DNA from: a virus
Lineage: Duplodnaviria; Heunggongvirae; Uroviricota; Caudoviricetes
Reading direction: 5' to 3' (one strand)
Length of the DNA: 5,626 nucleotides
IMG/VR virus record: IMGVR_UViG_3300018483_000013
Under the pieces are notes generated by a model. The model was not told the origin of the DNA, made no database searches, and saw only the letters and a program-made list of their open reading frames with translations. Positions 1 through 5,626 of the stretch are shown in pieces. The first letter of the stretch is position 1. Each line of letters begins with the position of its first letter. Position numbers and translations under genes: made by a program.

Positions 1-51
1 GCATACGAGATGCCTAAGTGACTGGAGTTCAGACGTGTGCTCTTCCGATCT
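1..51. other. Illumina TruSeq indexed (P7-side) adapter, reverse-complement orientation: GCATACGAGAT + 6-nt index GCCTAA + GTGACTGGAGTTCAGACGTGTGCTCTTCCGATCT. Not biological sequence.
   Basis: Positions 1-51 match the known TruSeq index adapter/PCR primer 2 region directly. The 6-mer GCCTAA is the reverse complement of TTAGGC, which I recall as a TruSeq index. The same adapter appears in inverted orientation at the other end of the window. Confidence 0.95.
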
Positions 52-973
52 GGTACAGATAGTCTATGACTGGCTGGATGCACTGAAAGATCCCAACGGC
101 CTGAAAACCTTTGTGAACACCACGCTGGGCGAGACCTACGAAGAGGCCGTGGGCGAAAAACTCGATCACCAGGTACTGATGGATAAGGTTGTGCGTTACA
201 CGGCGGCGGTGCCTGCCCGGGTGGTTTATCTGACGGCCGGCATTGACTCGCAGCGAAACCGTTTTGAGATGTATGTCTGGGGATGGGCTCCGGGAGAGGA
301 AGCCTTTCTGGTGGATAAAATCATCATTATGGGGCGTCCCGATGAGGAAGAGACGCTGTTACGTGTGGATGCGGCGATCAACAAAAAATACCGCCATGCA
401 GACGGAACCGAAATGACCATTTCCCGTGTCTGCTGGGACATCGGGGGGATCGATGGCGAAATCGTTTATCAGAGGTCAAAAAAACACGGTGTTTTCCGGG
501 TGCTGCCGGTAAAAGGCGCATCTGTCTATGGCAAGCCGGTGATCACCATGCCAAAAACCCGCAATCAGCGGGGCGTGTATCTGTGTGAAGTGGGGACGGA
601 CACCGCAAAAGAAATTCTCTATGCCCGTATGAGAGCCGATCCCACGCCTGCGGATGAAGCCACGTCGTATGCCATCCGTTTTCCTGATGATCCGGAGATT
701 TTTTCGCAGACAGAGGCGCAGCAACTGGTGGCGGAAGAGCTTGTGGAGAAGTGGGAAAAAGGAAAGATGCGTCTGCTGTGGGATAACAAAAAGCGGCGTA
801 ACGAAGCGCTGGACTGCCTGGTGTATGCCTACGCGGCATTACGTGTGTCCGTGCAACGTTGGCAGCTTGATCTGGCTGTACTGGCAAAATCCCGGGAAGA
901 AGAGACGACCCGGCCAACCCTTAAAGAACTGGCAGCGAAGCTGTCCGGAGGAGTGAATGGTTACAGTCGCTGA
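52..973 (+). CDS. A: Terminase large subunit (lambda gpA-like), C-terminal fragment; 5' end truncated by the contig/adapter boundary. First complete genomic codon starts at 53; stop TGA at 971-973.
   Basis: The ORF 35-973 translation closely resembles my recollection of the lambda gpA C-terminal half (e.g. WGWAPGEEAFLVDKIIIMGRPDEEETLLRVDAAINKKY, SKKHGVFRVLPVKGASVYGKP, VYLCEVGTDTAKE, WDNKKRRNEALDCLVYAYAALR). The first residues MCSSDL are translated from adapter bases 35-51 and are not real. Position in the gene order (upstream of W, B, C, D, E) fits. Confidence 0.92.
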
Positions 974-1163
974 ACTGCAGGCGCTGCGTCAGGCGCGCCT
1001 TGATTTATTAACCGGTAAACGGGTGGTGTCTGTCCAGAAAGATGGTCGCAGAATTGAATATACGGCGGCTTCTCTGGATGAGCTTAACCGGGCGATCAAT
1101 GATGCGGAGTCGGTACTGGGGACAACCCGACGTCGCCGTCGTCCGCTGGGAGTGAGGTTATGA
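957..1163 (+). CDS. W: Head completion / head-tail joining protein (lambda gpW-like), 68 aa
   Basis: 68 aa, the same length as lambda gpW, with a conserved core LTGKRVVSVQKDGRRIEYTAASLDEL (lambda, as I recall it, has [24 protein letters not shown]). The ATG at 957 is preceded by GGAGGAG (about 945-951) and overlaps the end of the terminase gene by 17 nt. Confidence 0.9.
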   Translation: MVTVAELQALRQARLDLLTGKRVVSVQKDGRRIEYTAASLDELNRAINDAESVLGTTRRRRRPLGVRL

Positions 1164-2752
1164 AACGAACGCCTGTCCTGATTGATGTGAACGGTGTTCC
1201 GCTTCGTGAGAGTCTCAGCTACAACGGGGGCGGCGCAGGATTTGGCGGGCAAATGGCGGAGTGGTTGCCACCGGCGCAGAGTGCCGATGCGGCCCTGCTG
1301 CCCGCGTTGCGTCTGGGGAATGCCCGGGCAGATGATCTGGTGCGCAATAACGGAATAGCGGCTAATGCGGTTGCCCTGCATAAGGATCACATTGTCGGGC
1401 ATATGTTTCTGATCAGCTACCGTCCGAACTGGCGCTGGCTGGGGATGCGGGAGACCGCAGCAAAAAGCTTTGTCGATGAGGTGGAGGCGGCCTGGTCGGA
1501 ATACGCCGAAGGGATGTTTGGCGAGATCGACGTGGAAGGAAAACGCACGTTCACGGAATTTATCCGTGAAGGTGTGGGCGTTCATGCGTTTAACGGCGAA
1601 ATCTTTGTGCAGCCGGTCTGGGATACGGAAACCACGCAGTTATTCCGTACGCGTTTTAAAGCTGTGAGTCCGAAACGGGTGGACACGCCTGGACACGGTA
1701 TGGGGAACCGTTTTCTGCGGGCCGGTGTGGAGGTCGATCGATATGGCCGTGCCGTCGCGTACCATATCTGTGAGGATGATTTTCCGTTCTCTGGTAGTGG
1801 ACGATGGGAACGGATCCCGCGTGAACTTCCCACCGGGCGTCCGGCCATGCTGCATATTTTCGAGCCGGTGGAGGACGGGCAGACCCGTGGGGCTAATCAG
1901 TTTTACAGCGTCATGGAACGGCTGAAGATGCTCGATTCCCTGCAGGCAACACAGCTTCAGTCGGCCATAGTGAAGGCGATGTATGCAGCGACGATTGAAA
2001 GTGAACTTGATACCGAAAAGGCCTTTGAATATATCGCCGGCGCGCCACAGGAGCAGAAGGATAATCCGCTTATTAATATTCTGGAGAAGTTCTCCAGCTG
2101 GTATGACACGAATAACGTGACACTGGGCGGAGTCAAAATTCCGCACCTTTTCCCTGGTGATGATCTGAAACTACAGACTGCGCAGGATTCAGACAATGGA
2201 TTTTCTGCACTTGAACAGGCGCTGCTGCGGTATATCGCCGCCGGTCTTGGCGTTTCCTACGAACAGTTGTCCCGTGATTACTCGAAGGTCAGTTACTCAA
2301 GTGCCCGCGCCTCCGCCAATGAGTCGTGGCGCTATTTTATGGGGCGGCGAAAATTTATTGCGGCCCGGCTGGCCACGCAGATGTTTTCCTGCTGGCTGGA
2401 AGAGGCACTTCTTCGGGGGATTATTCGTCCGCCACGGGCACGTTTTGATTTTTATCAGGCGCGATCAGCCTGGTCACGGGCAGAGTGGATTGGTGCCGGA
2501 AGAATGGCCATTGACGGGCTCAAGGAAGTCCAGGAATCAGTGATGCGCATTGAGGCCGGACTGAGCACGTATGAGAAAGAGCTGGCGCTGATGGGCGAGG
2601 ATTATCAGGACATTTTCCGCCAGCAGGTCAGGGAATCTGCTGAGCGGCAAAAAGCCGGACTCTCACGTCCGGTGTGGATAGCGCAGGCGTATCAGCAGCA
2701 GATAGCGGAGAGTCGCAGGCCGGAAGAGGAGACAACACCACGTGAGACGTAA
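1160..2752 (+). CDS. B: Portal protein (lambda gpB-like), 530 aa
   Basis: Long stretches match recalled lambda gpB motifs: GNARADDLVRNNG, HAFNGEIFVQPVWDT, FEPVEDGQTRGAN, LQSAIVKAMYAATIESELDT, LRYIAAGLGVSYEQLSR, ARASANESW-YFMGRRKF, WIGAGRMAIDGLKEVQESVM-IEAGLSTYEKE. Length is 530 aa versus about 533 in lambda. The start ATG overlaps the W stop (ATGA at 1160-1163) and is preceded by GGGAGTGAGG. Confidence 0.96.
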   Translation: MKRTPVLIDVNGVPLRESLSYNGGGAGFGGQMAEWLPPAQSADAALLPALRLGNARADDLVRNNGIAANAVALHKDHIVGHMFLISYRPNWRWLGMRETAAKSFVDEVEAAWSEYAEGMFGEIDVEGKRTFTEFIREGVGVHAFNGEIFVQPVWDTETTQLFRTRFKAVSPKRVDTPGHGMGNRFLRAGVEVDRYGRAVAYHICEDDFPFSGSGRWERIPRELPTGRPAMLHIFEPVEDGQTRGANQFYSVMERLKMLDSLQATQLQSAIVKAMYAATIESELDTEKAFEYIAGAPQEQKDNPLINILEKFSSWYDTNNVTLGGVKIPHLFPGDDLKLQTAQDSDNGFSALEQALLRYIAAGLGVSYEQLSRDYSKVSYSSARASANESWRYFMGRRKFIAARLATQMFSCWLEEALLRGIIRPPRARFDFYQARSAWSRAEWIGAGRMAIDGLKEVQESVMRIEAGLSTYEKELALMGEDYQDIFRQQVRESAERQKAGLSRPVWIAQAYQQQIAESRRPEEETTPRET

Positions 2753-4247
2753 TCTTTCACACATTATTGCCGCAGCATTCAATGAACCGCTGCTTCTGGA
2801 GCCCGCCTATGCGCGGGTTTTCTTTTGCGCGCTCGGGCGCGAGATGGGGGCAGCAAGTCTTTCGGTACCACAACAACAGGTACAGCTTGATGCTCCCGGA
2901 ATGCTGGCTGAAACGGACGAGTATATGGCCGGAGGTAAACGACCGGCCCGTGTTTACCGGGTGGTGAACGGTATTGCTGTACTGCCGGTGACCGGCACGC
3001 TGGTGCACCGGCTGGGTGGTATGCGGCCATTTTCCGGAATGACAGGCTATGACGGCATTGTCGCCTGTCTTCAGCAGGCAATGGCGGATAGCCAGGTGCG
3101 GGGCGTACTGCTGGACATTGACAGTCCGGGCGGGCAGGCCGCCGGCGCGTTTGACTGCGCTGACATGATTTACCGCCTCCGTCAGCAGAAGCCGGTCTGG
3201 GCACTGTGCAATGACACGGCCTGTTCTGCAGCCATGCTGCTGGCGTCGGCCTGCTCCCGACGGCTGGTTACCCAGACATCCCGTATCGGCTCCATTGGCG
3301 TGATGATGAGCCATGTCAGCTATGCCGGTCATCTGGCGCAGGCCGGTGTGGATATCACGCTGATTTACTCAGGGGCGCACAAGGTGGATGGCAATCAGTT
3401 TGAAGCGTTGCCGGCAGAGGTTCGCCAGGACATGCAGCAGCGGATTGATGCGGCGCGCCGGATGTTTGCCGAAAAAGTGGCGATGTATACCGGTCTGTCT
3501 GTTGATGCCGTCACGGGAACAGAGGCTGCCGTTTTTGAAGGTCAGTCCGGCATTGAGGCCGGGCTGGCGGATGAATTAATCAATGCGTCGGATGCCATCA
3601 GTGTGATGGCCACGGCGCTGAACAGTAATGTCAGAGGAGGCACTATGCCGCAATTAACTGCAACGGAAGCCGCCGCGCAGGAGAACCAGCGAGTGATGGG
3701 GATCCTGACATGCCAGGAAGCGAAAGGACGTGAACAGCTTGCCACGATGCTGGCAGGACAACAGGGCATGAGCGTTGAACAGGCCCGGGCGATTCTGGCC
3801 GCGGCGGCACCGCAGCAGCCGGTGGCATCCACGCAGAGTGAAGCCGATCGCATTATGGCGTGTGAAGAAGCGAACGGTCGTGAACAACTGGCGGCAACGC
3901 TGGCGGCGATGCCGGAGATGACGGTGGAAAAAGCCCGCCCGATCCTGGCTGCTTCACCGCAGGCGGATGCCGGACCATCACTCCGTGATCAGATCATGGC
4001 ACTGGATGAGGCAAAAGGGGCTGAGGCGCAGGCTGAACAGCTGGCTGCCTGCCCGGGAATGACAGTGGAGAGCGCCCGGGCTGTGCTGGCTGCGGGATCA
4101 GGTAAGGCAGAACCGGTCTCTGCATCCACAACCGCCATGTTTGAACATTTCATGGCGAACCATTCACCGGCAGCGGTACAGGGTGGCGTGGCACAGACGT
4201 CAGCAGACGGTGATGCGGACGTGAAAATGCTCATGGCCATGCCATGA
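2742..4247 (+). CDS. C: Prohead protease / minor capsid protein C (lambda gpC-like, peptidase S49/ClpP-fold family), 501 aa, GTG start
   Basis: The N-terminal two thirds align with recalled lambda gpC (NEPLLLEPAYARVFFCAL, VNGIAVLPVTGTLV, MTGYDGIV, GAFDCADMI, KPVWAL-ND-ACSAA-LLASA-SRRLVTQT, GSIGVMM-H, ITLIYSG-HKVDGN, EAAV--GQ--I-AGLADEL). The putative catalytic Ser is residue 162 (TCT at 3225-3227). GTG at 2742 is the first start codon after an in-frame TAG at 2703-2705; a GAGGAG motif lies about 10 nt upstream; the gene overlaps the portal stop by 11 nt. Confidence 0.93.
   Translation: MRRNLSHIIAAAFNEPLLLEPAYARVFFCALGREMGAASLSVPQQQVQLDAPGMLAETDEYMAGGKRPARVYRVVNGIAVLPVTGTLVHRLGGMRPFSGMTGYDGIVACLQQAMADSQVRGVLLDIDSPGGQAAGAFDCADMIYRLRQQKPVWALCNDTACSAAMLLASACSRRLVTQTSRIGSIGVMMSHVSYAGHLAQAGVDITLIYSGAHKVDGNQFEALPAEVRQDMQQRIDAARRMFAEKVAMYTGLSVDAVTGTEAAVFEGQSGIEAGLADELINASDAISVMATALNSNVRGGTMPQLTATEAAAQENQRVMGILTCQEAKGREQLATMLAGQQGMSVEQARAILAAAAPQQPVASTQSEADRIMACEEANGREQLAATLAAMPEMTVEKARPILAASPQADAGPSLRDQIMALDEAKGAEAQAEQLAACPGMTVESARAVLAAGSGKAEPVSASTTAMFEHFMANHSPAAVQGGVAQTSADGDADVKMLMAMP
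3645..4247 (+). CDS. Nu3: Nested in-frame scaffolding protein (lambda Nu3-like), sharing frame and stop with the protease gene; about 200 aa
   Basis: An internal ATG at 3645 is in the protease frame ((3645-2742)/3 = 301) and is immediately preceded by a strong Shine-Dalgarno AGAGGAGG (3633-3640). In lambda, Nu3 is translated from an internal start inside C in the same frame. The downstream sequence is Ala/Gln/Glu-rich and helix-like, typical of scaffold proteins. The exact start needs experimental confirmation. Confidence 0.7.
   Translation: MPQLTATEAAAQENQRVMGILTCQEAKGREQLATMLAGQQGMSVEQARAILAAAAPQQPVASTQSEADRIMACEEANGREQLAATLAAMPEMTVEKARPILAASPQADAGPSLRDQIMALDEAKGAEAQAEQLAACPGMTVESARAVLAAGSGKAEPVSASTTAMFEHFMANHSPAAVQGGVAQTSADGDADVKMLMAMP
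3690..4094 (+). repeat. Three tandem, diverged copies of a ~40-45 aa motif (R-[VI]-M-x-[IL]-x-x-x-E-A-x-G-x-E-Q-L-A-x-x-L-A-x-x-P-x-M-[ST]-V-E-x-A-R-x-[IV]-L-A-A) inside the C/Nu3 coding region
   Basis: Protein-level repeats read from the translation: RVMGILTCQEAKGREQLATMLAGQQGMSVEQARAILAAA (3690-3803), RIMACEEANGREQLAATLAAMPEMTVEKARPILAAS (3849-3953), and RDQIMALDEAKGAEAQAEQLAACPGMTVESARAVLAAG (3984-4094). The copies are diverged at the nucleotide level, so this is an old duplication, not an assembly artefact. Confidence 0.75.
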
Positions 4248-4283
4248 AGTCAGTGCTGACCATCAATAGGAGGTTTTTACAAT

Positions 4284-4631
4284 ATGGTGACGAAAACCAT
4301 CACTGAACAGCGTGCGGAAGTACGTATTTTTGCCGGTAATGATCCGGCTCATACCGCCACAGGCAGCAGCGGGATTTCCTCGCCAACACCGGCACTGACG
4401 CCCCTGATGCTGGATGAAGCCACCGGGAAACTGGTGGTCTGGGACGGACAGAAAGCCGGTAGTGCGGTTGGCATACTGGTACTGCCGCTTGACGGCACAG
4501 AGACGGCGCTGACGTATTACAAGTCGGGAACCTTTGCGACGGAGGCAATCCACTGGCCTGAAAGTGTGGATGAACACAAAAAGGCCAACGCCTTTGCCGG
4601 CAGTGCCCTGAGTCACGCGGCGCTGCCGTAA
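4284..4631 (+). CDS. D: Head decoration protein (lambda gpD-like), 115 aa
   Basis: Matches recalled lambda gpD motifs: NDPAHTAT, TPLMLD, KLVVWDG, AVGIL, YYKSGTF, FAGSA (lambda is about 110 aa). AGGAGG at 4268-4273 lies 10 nt upstream of the ATG at 4284. Stop TAA at 4629-4631. Confidence 0.93.
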   Translation: MVTKTITEQRAEVRIFAGNDPAHTATGSSGISSPTPALTPLMLDEATGKLVVWDGQKAGSAVGILVLPLDGTETALTYYKSGTFATEAIHWPESVDEHKKANAFAGSALSHAALP

Positions 4632-4640
4632 CACGTTATC

Positions 4641-4658
4641 AGGCCACCGCGGTGGCCT
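4641..4658. promoter_or_regulatory. Perfect 18-bp palindrome AGGCCACCGCGGTGGCCT in the D-E intergenic region; candidate RNA hairpin (partial terminator/attenuator or mRNA-stability element) or protein-binding site
   Basis: Seen directly: AGGCCACCG is the exact reverse complement of CGGTGGCCT. It sits 10 nt after the D stop and 31 nt before the E start, and is followed by GACTGATTTCTG, which is T-containing but not a clean U-tract. Function is inferred. Confidence 0.4.
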
Positions 4659-4688
4659 GACTGATTTCTGAATGAAAGGAACTGATTT

Positions 4689-5602
4689 ATGGGATTGTTT
4701 ACGACCCGCCAGTTACTCGGTTATACCGAACAAAAAGTGAAATTTCGTTCGCTGTTTCTGGAGCTGTTTTTCCGCCGTACGGTGAATTTCCATACCGAAG
4801 AGGTGATGCTGGACAAAATTACCGGAAAAACGCCGGTGGCGGCCTATGTCTCCCCGGTTGTTGAAGGAAAAGTGCTGCGTCATCGTGGTGGTGAAACCCG
4901 CGTGTTGCGTCCGGGCTACGTCAAGCCGAAACACGAATTTAATTACCAGCAGGCGGTTGAGCGCCTTCCTGGTGAAGATCCATCTCAACTGAACGATCCG
5001 GCTTACCGCCGTCTGCGTATCATTACCGATAACCTCAAACAGGAAGAGCACGCGATTGTCCAGGTGGAAGAAATGCAGGCGGTAAATGCTGTGTTGTATG
5101 GCAAATACACCATGGAAGGAGACCAGTTCGAGAAAATTGAGGTCGATTTTGGCAGGTCGACGAAGAATAACATCACACAGGGTAGCGGTAAGGAATGGTC
5201 AAAACAGGATCGTGACACTTTCGATCCTACACATGATATTGATCTTTACTGCGACCAGGCCAGCGGTCTTGTGAATATTGCCATCATGGACGGTACCGTT
5301 TGGCGTCTGCTGAATGGTTTTAAGCTGTTTCGCGAAAAACTGGATACCCGTCGCGGTTCAAATTCACAACTCGAAACGGCAGTGAAAGATCTGGGCGCAG
5401 TGGTGTCCTTCAAGGGGTATTACGGCGATCTGGCTATTGTTGTGGCGAAAACGTCTTATATAGCAGAAGACGGTATCGAAAAACGTTATCTTCCAGATGG
5501 CATGCTGGTCCTGGGGAATACTGCTGCAGATGGGATCCGTTGTTACGGAGCCATTCAGGATGCGCAGGCGTTGTCCGAAGGTGTGGTGGCTTCTTCCCGT
5601 TA
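4689..5602 (+). CDS. E: Major capsid protein (lambda gpE-like), N-terminal ~304 codons; 3' end truncated by the contig/adapter boundary (lambda gpE is about 341 aa)
   Basis: Strong similarity to recalled lambda gpE: PGYVKPKHE, DPAYRR-RII, AIVQVEEMQAVNAVL-GKYTM, NNITQ, EWSK-D, KEKLDTRRGSNS-LETAVKDLG, YGD-AIVV, LPDGMLVLGNT, YG-IQDA. The AAGGA Shine-Dalgarno lies about 8 nt upstream of the ATG at 4689. The apparent stop TAA at 5601-5603 is formed by genomic TA plus the first adapter base, so it is not the real stop. Confidence 0.93.
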
Positions 5603-5626
5603 AGATCGGAAGAGCACACGTCTGAA
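5603..5626. other. Illumina TruSeq adapter read-through sequence AGATCGGAAGAGCACACGTCTGAA (start of the index-adapter trimming sequence). Not biological sequence.
   Basis: Exact match to the first 24 nt of the standard TruSeq read-1 3' adapter (AGATCGGAAGAGCACACGTCTGAACTCCAGTCAC). It mirrors the adapter at positions 1-51. Confidence 0.95.

What the first reader, a model, noticed from the sequence alone, without database searches (positions are those of the whole stretch)
1..51. Left end of the window is an Illumina TruSeq index adapter, which creates a false N-terminus on the terminase ORF
Positions 1-51 are GCATACGAGAT-GCCTAA-GTGACTGGAGTTCAGACGTGTGCTCTTCCGATCT, the reverse complement of the TruSeq indexed adapter. 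The ORF-track protein starting MCSSDL at 35 begins inside the adapter, so that start and the first six residues are artefacts. The real terminase gene runs off the contig end; about half of it is missing. Any database hit or novel N-terminal domain claimed for this region would be spurious.
Basis: partly seen in the sequence, partly recalled or inferred. Interest (0 to 1): 0.55.

Follow-up and report, generated by a model that had tools for sequence, protein, structure and literature searches.

The report
Sequencing adapter left on contig ends
The first 51 bases of this window, and also the last 24, are synthetic Illumina library adapter stuck onto an ordinary piece of a phage 21-like E. coli prophage, so the apparent start of the terminase gene and the apparent end of the capsid gene are assembly artefacts, not biology.

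Summary
The observation and the interpretation are both confirmed. Window 1-51 is identical to the last 51 nt of the published Illumina barcode PCR primer (TruSeq index AD003, TTAGGC). Complete E. coli genomes and lambdoid phage records match the window only from base 52. Identity to the closest prophage is 99.6% over 52-5602 and falls to chance in 1-51.

The GTG at 35 and the residues MCSSDL are artefacts. Five codons are pure adapter, and the sixth is two adapter bases plus one genomic base (the real residue is Trp336). The true terminase large subunit has 642 aa. 52% of it is missing, including the whole ATPase domain.

This has three effects:
- It forms a perfect 24-nt terminal inverted repeat.
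- It creates a false TAA stop that removes 38 residues from the major capsid protein.
- It starts a second spurious "MCSSDL" ORF on the minus strand.

The same adapter, with other index hexamers, sits at the ends of at least 120 unrelated IMG/VR contigs and in 41 GenBank phage records.

The real content, 52-5602, is the known head-gene block of phage 21 (99.1% identity). Nothing here is new. The window should be trimmed to 52-5602.

The parts
1..11 (+). Last 11 nt (GCATACGAGAT) of the 24-nt P7 flow-cell part of the Illumina index primer; cut by the contig end
   Evidence: primer sequences in PMC10899773 and PMC11825126
12..17 (+). Index hexamer GCCTAA, the reverse complement of TTAGGC (TruSeq AD003)
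   Evidence: only AD003 of 12 indices fits; PMC11825126 labels this primer AD003
18..51 (+). Read-2 sequencing-primer part of the indexed adapter, GTGACTGGAGTTCAGACGTGTGCTCTTCCGATCT, ending in the T overhang
   Evidence: Exact match, 0 of 200 shuffles; present in 796 papers as a primer sequence
35..52 (+). Artefactual start of ORF 35..973: GTG start plus codons for MCSSDL. The sixth codon, CTG, is adapter C50 and T51 plus genomic G52; the real codon is TGG (Trp336)
52..973 (+). 3' 48% of the terminase large subunit gene (nt 1008-1929 of 1929). It holds the endonuclease domain only; the ATPase domain is missing
   Evidence: Pfam GpA_nuclease profile positions 16-287 of 294, against GpA_ATPase plus GpA_nuclease in the full 642-aa protein
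957..1163 (+). Head-tail joining protein gpW (68 aa), intact
   Evidence: Pfam gpW, E = 1.2e-22; annotation of L001
1160..2752 (+). Portal protein, lambda family (530 aa), intact
   Evidence: Pfam Phage_portal_2; the identical protein lies on many E. coli assemblies, including AE014075.1
2742..4247 (+). S49 peptidase / scaffold protein (501 aa; lambda C/Nu3 equivalent), intact
   Evidence: Pfam Peptidase_S49; annotations
4284..4631 (+). Head decoration protein (115 aa; lambda gpD family), intact
   Evidence: Pfam HDPD
4689..5602 (+). 5' 89% of the major capsid protein gene (nt 1-914 of 1029); the last 38 residues are missing
   Evidence: Pfam Phage_cap_E profile 1-288 of 329 in the window, against 1-329 in the full protein
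5601..5603 (+). False TAA stop codon: genomic T5601 and A5602 plus adapter A5603. The real codon is TAT (Tyr305)
5603..5626 (+). First 24 nt of the same indexed adapter in sense orientation (AGATCGGAAGAGCACACGTCTGAA), the sequence seen by read 1 when it runs through a short insert. It forms a perfect 24-nt inverted repeat with 28-51
   Evidence: adapter assigned to read 1 in bioRxiv 10.1101/2021.09.07.459340
5434..5619 (-). Spurious antisense ORF (61 aa) whose GTG start and MCSSDL N-terminus come from the right-end adapter

Best explanation
The window is a short-read assembly contig built from reads that were not adapter-trimmed. Its real content is bases 52-5602, which is 5,551 bp of the head-gene block of a phage 21-like lambdoid prophage of E. 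coli.

At each end, the outermost read came from a library fragment whose insert was shorter than the read. Read 1 therefore ran through the end of the insert into the indexed (P7-side) TruSeq adapter. On the right this appears in sense orientation (insert, then AGATCGGAAGAGCACACGTCTGAA). On the left it appears as the reverse complement (...GCATACGAGAT-GCCTAA-GTGACTGGAGTTCAGACGTGTGCTCTTCCGATCT, then insert).

Adapter k-mers are shared by every fragment in the library, so the assembly graph branches there and the contig stops inside the adapter.

An ORF finder then picks the first in-frame start, the GTG at 35 inside the adapter, as a false terminase N-terminus. It also reads a TAA formed across the right junction as a false capsid C-terminus.

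Shown: the adapter identity, the exact junctions, the truncations and the absence of the adapter from homologous genomes. Inferred: the read-through and graph-branching route by which the adapter got into the contig.
For: - Window 1-51 is identical to the 3' 51 nt of the published Illumina barcode primer, with the AD003 index.
- Window 5603-5626 is the start of the read-1 adapter, and the two ends form a perfect 24-nt inverted repeat.
- Both junctions have the T/A signature of TA ligation...GATCT|insert|AGATC....
- An ungapped alignment with prophage NZ_CP015229.1 gives 21 mismatches in 5,551 nt over 52-5602. Only 17 of 51 bases agree on the left of it and 4 of 24 on the right.
- Every listed E. 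coli match starts at 52 and ends at 5602.
- In the phage collection, lambdoid records match from 52 onward (Gifsy-1 from 50). Records that match the adapter are unrelated phages whose match ends at 51 or, in one case, up to 16 bases later. No record holds both parts.
- Only 2 of 5,426 complete E. coli genomes hold anything like 1-51, and both places are non-phage (cheB-cheY; upstream of bglG).
- Eleven independent assemblies read through both junctions with conserved phage sequence.
- The same motif with a variable hexamer occurs in at least 120 IMG/VR contigs. It lies a median of 23 nt from the end, points inward and is followed by 120 different sequences. 115 of the 120 hexamers are TruSeq indices.
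- There is no read-2 (universal) adapter and no internal adapter in the window.
Against: - The raw reads are not available, so the read-through route, the read length and the coverage at the junctions are inferred, not seen.
- The source contig could not be found in the searchable collections, so the library type and the assembler are unknown.
- A contig carrying the P7-side adapter at both ends would also fit other laboratory or in-silico routes (see the rival explanations). All of those are still artefacts.
Confidence: 0.96

Rival explanations
1. The adapter is real contamination but got there by another technical route. Possible routes are a chimeric ligation or adapter concatemer, a single 5.5-kb molecule carrying the P7-side adapter at both ends (for example an Illumina library re-sequenced with long reads), or adapter sequence appended during data handling. 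The consequences for annotation are the same.
For: Both ends carry the same P7-side adapter as an inverted repeat, as a molecule ligated to identical adapters at both ends would. The window holds no universal (P5-side) adapter.
Against: In a Y-adapter library, read-1 read-through in both orientations gives exactly this pattern. Independent trimming at the contig ends explains the unequal lengths (51 against 24 nt). At least 120 short-read-assembled IMG/VR contigs show the same end-located, inward-pointing pattern. A 5.5-kb insert is far beyond normal Illumina library sizes (general knowledge).
Confidence: 0.035
2. The 24-nt perfect terminal inverted repeats are biological. On this reading they are the ends of a mobile element, or a linear phage genome with inverted terminal repeats, and 1-51 is native sequence.
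For: There is a perfect 24-nt inverted repeat at the two ends of the window. At least one GenBank phage record annotates a terminal repeat region that includes this same sequence.
Against: The repeat is base-for-base a synthetic oligonucleotide with a commercial index. It occurs in phages of Staphylococcus, Bacillus, Caulobacter, Klebsiella and Nostoc, and in the RNA phage MS2, with different indices. The stretch between the arms cuts two genes in mid-codon. It encodes no transposase. Eleven homologous assemblies are continuous across both points.
Confidence: 0.003
3. The ORF at 35 encodes a real, naturally truncated terminase (nuclease domain only) with a novel short N-terminus in a degraded prophage.
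For: An uninterrupted 312-aa ORF with a GTG start exists and matches GpA_nuclease strongly.
Against: The start codon and the first five codons lie wholly in the adapter. The frame is in fact open to the contig end, so the gene simply runs off the contig. No gene with exactly this product is on record in the public assembly collection. All ten neighbourhoods of the identical portal gene have a terminase of 642-656 aa with both domains.
Confidence: 0.002

Closest known systems
Illumina TruSeq indexed adapter / index (barcode) PCR primer, index AD003 (TTAGGC): CAAGCAGAAGACGGCATACGAGAT-GCCTAA-GTGACTGGAGTTCAGACGTGTGCTCTTCCGATCT
   Same: Window 1-51 is identical to the last 51 nt of this primer, and window 5603-5626 to the reverse complement of its last 24 nt.
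   Different: The first 13 nt of the primer (CAAGCAGAAGACG) are absent because the contig ends. Nothing else differs.
Adapter or vector contamination of public assemblies (the class of artefact that UniVec/VecScreen-type screens target; the Nanopore analogue is described in PMC13182109)
   Same: A synthetic oligonucleotide sits at contig ends, points inward, is followed by unrelated sequence in each record, and creates false gene ends.
   Different: None in kind. This is an ordinary instance.
Head-gene region of lambdoid phage 21 (GenBank M81255.1, OL657228.1) and the related E. coli prophages
   Same: Window 52-5602 is 99.1% identical over its full length to phage 21, with the same gene order: terminase large subunit, W-like, portal, S49 protease/scaffold, decoration protein, major capsid protein.
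   Different: The window holds only an internal 5.55-kb piece. The terminase lacks its first 335 codons and the capsid gene its last 38.
Phage lambda gpA-type terminase large subunit (Pfam GpA_ATPase plus GpA_nuclease)
   Same: The C-terminal endonuclease domain is present and scores 219 bits.
   Different: The N-terminal ATPase domain is not in the window. This is a truncation by the contig end, not a natural variant.

Membership tests
Illumina TruSeq indexed (P7-side) adapter | Exact 34-nt read-2 primer segment GTGACTGGAGTTCAGACGTGTGCTCTTCCGATCT | tested here: met
   Window 18-51, 0 mismatches, 0 of 200 shuffles
Illumina TruSeq indexed (P7-side) adapter | 6-nt index from the commercial set, placed between the P7 part and the read-2 primer part | tested here: met
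   GCCTAA is the reverse complement of TTAGGC (AD003); it is the only one of 12 indices that fits, and the primer is labelled AD003 in PMC11825126
Illumina TruSeq indexed (P7-side) adapter | P7 flow-cell segment CAAGCAGAAGACGGCATACGAGAT 5' of the index | tested here: met
   The last 11 of its 24 nt are present at 1-11; the rest is cut off by the contig end
Illumina TruSeq indexed (P7-side) adapter | Non-biological distribution: the same sequence, with different indices, joined to unrelated sequences, mostly at contig ends | tested here: met
   At least 120 IMG/VR contigs, median 23 nt from an end, 120 different flanks, 17 different hexamers; 41 phage records from many hosts
Illumina TruSeq indexed (P7-side) adapter | Absent at the homologous position of independent genomes | tested here: met
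Illumina TruSeq indexed (P7-side) adapter | Raw reads show read-through of short inserts at the junctions | not testable with these tools
   No reads are available and the source contig was not found
Lambda gpA-type terminase large subunit (for ORF 35..973) | N-terminal GpA_ATPase domain (PF05876) | tested here: not met
   Absent from the window ORF; present at residues 49-293 of the full-length 642-aa homologue. The gene is a fragment cut by the contig end
Lambda gpA-type terminase large subunit (for ORF 35..973) | C-terminal GpA_nuclease domain (PF20454) | tested here: met
   E = 8.8e-65, profile positions 16-287 of 294, starting at ORF residue 6, the residue at the junction
Mobile element or linear phage genome with terminal inverted repeats | Terminal inverted repeats of native sequence flanking a complete functional unit (transposase or a whole genome) | tested here: not met
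   The repeat exists but is adapter sequence; the interior begins and ends in mid-codon of two genes; no transposase is encoded

The most novel reading that the evidence does not exclude
The most novel reading not strictly excluded is that positions 52 and 5602 are recurrent physical DNA ends in the sample, not random shearing points. On this reading a discrete 5.55-kb fragment of the prophage head region, bounded by specific cleavage, would explain why short-insert read-through reads dominate at exactly these two places. Nothing in the sequence suggests this, and no motif is shared by the two junctions beyond the adapter itself.
Probability: 0.01. Interest if true: 0.15.

Novelty: not a real feature. 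Interest (0 to 1): 0.05.

Why it matters
It matters only for data hygiene.

Left untrimmed, the contig yields four false results:
- a terminase with a false start and a six-residue false N-terminus;
- a major capsid protein with a false stop, 38 residues short;
- a spurious antisense ORF;
- a perfect 24-nt "terminal inverted repeat" that could be mistaken for a transposon end or a phage genome end.

The same mistake has reached public records. One GenBank phage genome annotates a terminal repeat region that includes this adapter. Two "complete" E. coli chromosomes carry the full primer internally, one of them directly upstream of a gene annotated as a truncated pseudogene.

The window should be trimmed to 52-5602, and both edge genes should be treated as partial.

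Tried and rejected
- I looked for the source contig, or any independent assembly with the same junction, by scanning for a 41-mer that spans base 51/52. IMG/VR, JGI metagenome contigs and GTDB representative genomes each gave 0 matches.
- I looked up the exact 312-aa artefactual protein in the public gene-position index; it is not on record. So the sample, the library kit and the assembler could not be identified.
- I considered that the two E. coli genomes matching 1-51 might be independent support for native sequence. This was rejected: both places are non-phage (cheB/cheY; upstream of bglG), carry 8-nt indices and the full P7 primer after a poly-T run, and are themselves contamination.
- I considered a biological terminal inverted repeat and rejected it (see the rival explanations).
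- I checked for internal adapters or chimeras and found none: only the two terminal AGATCGGAAGAGC sites, no universal adapter, and an ungapped alignment across the whole core.
- I looked for other features in the window and found none: no tandem repeats and no Rfam families.
- A first anchoring script mis-anchored the alignment because of a mismatch at base 61. It was redone with the BLAST offset.

Full report

Yes, to the base. One search reads window 1-51 as GCATACGAGAT GCCTAA GTGACTGGAGTTCAGACGTGTGCTCTTCCGATCT.
- The 34-mer at 18-51 matches the Illumina read-2 primer segment with no mismatch. None of 200 dinucleotide-preserving shuffles gives a match even with 3 mismatches allowed.
- I tested the 12 classic TruSeq indices. 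Only AD003 (TTAGGC, reverse complement GCCTAA) reproduces all 51 bases, which are positions 14-64 of the 64-nt reverse-complemented adapter plus its T overhang.
- The literature library confirms the identity independently of my memory. [quoted passage not shown] PMC11825126 labels the primer with this hexamer "AD003". 796 papers hold both constant parts as primer sequence.

**2. Where exactly does real sequence begin and end?**

The real sequence is 52-5602, with unambiguous junctions on both sides.
- A megablast of window 1-700 against 5,426 complete E. coli genomes finds 1,902 records. Every listed match starts at query base 52, in genes annotated as phage terminase large subunit.
- The same search with 4900-5626 ends at window base 5602 in every listed match, in a major capsid protein gene.
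- I took the best record, E. coli 06-00048 (NZ_CP015229.1, locus L001). An ungapped comparison gives 21 mismatches in the 5,551 bases 52-5602 (99.6% identity). Only 17 of 51 bases agree in 1-51 and 4 of 24 in 5603-5626, which is chance level.
- The bases next to each junction also differ: T51 against G, and A5603 against T. So neither junction is ambiguous.

**3. The right end, which the finding did not mention**

Window 5603-5626 is AGATCGGAAGAGCACACGTCTGAA. This is the start of the adapter that read 1 meets when it runs through a short insert; the Atria preprint, 10.1101/2021.09.07.459340, assigns it to read 1.
- It is the exact reverse complement of 28-51, so the window has a perfect 24-nt terminal inverted repeat (I1).
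- Both junctions have the T/A signature of TA ligation: ...GATCT|insert|AGATC...
- The read-2 (universal) adapter is absent and there is no internal adapter site.

**4. Consequences for the genes**

*Terminase.* The true terminase large subunit in L001 is 1,929 nt, or 642 aa.
- Window base 52 is nt 1008, the third base of codon 336.
- The real protein reads ...PFTTW-VQIVYDWLDALKDP. The window ORF reads MCSSDL-VQIVYDWLDALKDP.
- Residues 1-5 are therefore pure adapter. Residue 6 (Leu, CTG) is made of two adapter bases plus one genomic base, where the genome has Trp (TGG).
- The frame has no stop back to the contig end (HTRCLSDWSSDVCSSDL...). A gene caller that allows partial genes would add 17 false residues instead of six.
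- Pfam finds only GpA_nuclease in the window ORF (profile positions 16-287 of 294, from ORF residue 6). The full-length homologue has GpA_ATPase (residues 49-293) plus GpA_nuclease (323-601). So 52% of the gene is missing, including the whole ATPase domain.

*Major capsid protein.* The ORF 4689..5603 ends in a TAA made of genomic T5601 and A5602 plus adapter A5603. The real codon is TAT (Tyr305), and 38 more residues follow (YPKHWL...VVQVK), giving 342 aa. The Pfam profile is covered 1-288 of 329 in the window, against 1-329 in the full protein.

*Antisense ORF.* A spurious 61-aa minus-strand ORF at 5434..5619 also begins MCSSDL, because it starts in the same adapter frame.

**5. Is the sequence synthetic rather than native? 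The refutation test**

I looked for such assemblies and found none.
- Only 2 of 5,426 complete E. coli genomes match 1-51 at all. One place lies between cheB and cheY and the other just upstream of a bglG pseudogene. Both hold the full P7 primer with an 8-nt index after a poly-T run, so they are contamination themselves.
- In 50,697 phage records, window 1-160 splits cleanly. The lambdoid phages match from 52 onward (Gifsy-1 from 50). The records that match the adapter part are unrelated phages, of Staphylococcus, Bacillus, Caulobacter, Klebsiella, Nostoc and Mycobacterium, plus the RNA phage MS2. Their matches stop at 51 or at most 16 bases later. No record has both parts.
- The junction 41-mer is absent from IMG/VR, JGI metagenome contigs and GTDB representative genomes.
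- Eleven independent assemblies that carry this prophage type read through both junctions with conserved phage sequence (...CCGTTCACCACCTG|GGTACAGAT and ...CCCGTTA|TCCGAAACACTGG). Ten of them were found through the identical portal protein, and they include E. coli AE014075.1. None contains adapter.
It lies a median of 23 nt from an end, and within 300 nt in 118 of 120. It always points inward and is followed by 120 different 20-mers. 115 of the 120 hexamers are TruSeq indices on my list.

That distribution is what a library reagent gives, and no biological element gives it.

**6. How it got there (inferred)**

- Reads were assembled without adapter trimming.
- At each end of the contig, the outermost read came from a fragment whose insert was shorter than the read. 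Read 1 therefore continued into the indexed adapter.
- Adapter k-mers are shared by all fragments, so the assembly graph branches there and extension stops.
- Both ends show the read-1 adapter because read-through reads exist in both orientations. The unequal lengths (51 and 24 nt) reflect where each path was cut.
- I could not see the reads, so this route is inferred. Other technical routes (chimeric ligation, a molecule with the same adapter at both ends, a data-handling error) are not excluded, but they lead to the same practical conclusion.

**7. What the real sequence is**

Window 52-5602 is 99.1% identical over its full length to phage 21 (OL657228.1; M81255.1, the classical head-gene sequence) and to phages ev017, PhiR57_1 and others.

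The genes are the truncated terminase large subunit, gpW, the lambda-family portal, the S49 peptidase/scaffold protein, the gpD-family decoration protein and the truncated gpE-family major capsid protein. About a third of complete E. coli genomes carry a close relative (1,898 of 5,426). It is well-known biology. There are no tandem repeats and no Rfam families in the window.

**8. Verdict**

This is an artefact, not a feature. Interest is very low except as quality control: trim to 52-5602 and mark both edge genes as partial.

Noticed in passing
window 5603-5626 (with 28-51): The right end of the window carries the same Illumina adapter in the opposite orientation. This gives a perfect 24-nt terminal inverted repeat that could be mistaken for a transposon end or a phage genome end.
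   Followed up: yes
window 5601-5603: The TAA stop of the major capsid ORF (4689..5603) is made of two genomic bases plus the first adapter base. The real gene continues for 38 more codons (342 aa in homologues).
   Followed up: yes
window 5434-5619 (-), also 29-169 (-) and 5497-5625 (+): Spurious ORFs start or end inside the adapters. The minus-strand ORF at the right end begins with the same MCSSDL peptide as the false terminase start, so 'MCSSDL' is a handy signature of ORF starts born from this adapter.
   Followed up: partly
L124 (KY442063.1 / NC_047813.1, Staphylococcus phage Andhra) 1-55 and 18492-18546: This GenBank 'complete genome' has the same adapter (index ACAGTG) at both ends. 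It lies inside the annotated repeat_region features (14-168 and 18380-18534), so part of the annotated terminal repeat is adapter.
   Followed up: partly
L122 (NZ_AP046542.1, E. coli SK0832) about 3988-4053; L123 (NZ_AP040990.1, E. coli p1-49) about 2969-3033: Two 'complete' E. coli chromosomes carry the full P7 index primer (8-nt index) internally, after a poly-T run. One lies between cheB and cheY. The other lies directly upstream of a bglG annotated as a pseudogene 'missing N-terminus'. Both look like assembly or polishing contamination.
   Followed up: partly
window 4379-4507: 10 of the 21 mismatches to the closest prophage (L001) cluster in about 130 nt of the head-decoration gene (4379-4383, 4418-4421, 4468, 4493, 4507). 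This suggests a small mosaic patch or a locally fast-evolving segment.
   Followed up: no
window 3640-4130 (protein 2742..4247, C-terminal third): By eye, the scaffold part of the S49 protease/scaffold protein contains three similar segments of about 30 residues (…EAKGREQLATMLAGQQGMSVEQARAILAA…, …EANGREQLAATLAAMPEMTVEKARPILAA…, …EAKGAEAQAEQLAACPGMTVESARAVLAA…). They are too diverged at the DNA level for Tandem Repeats Finder.
   Followed up: no
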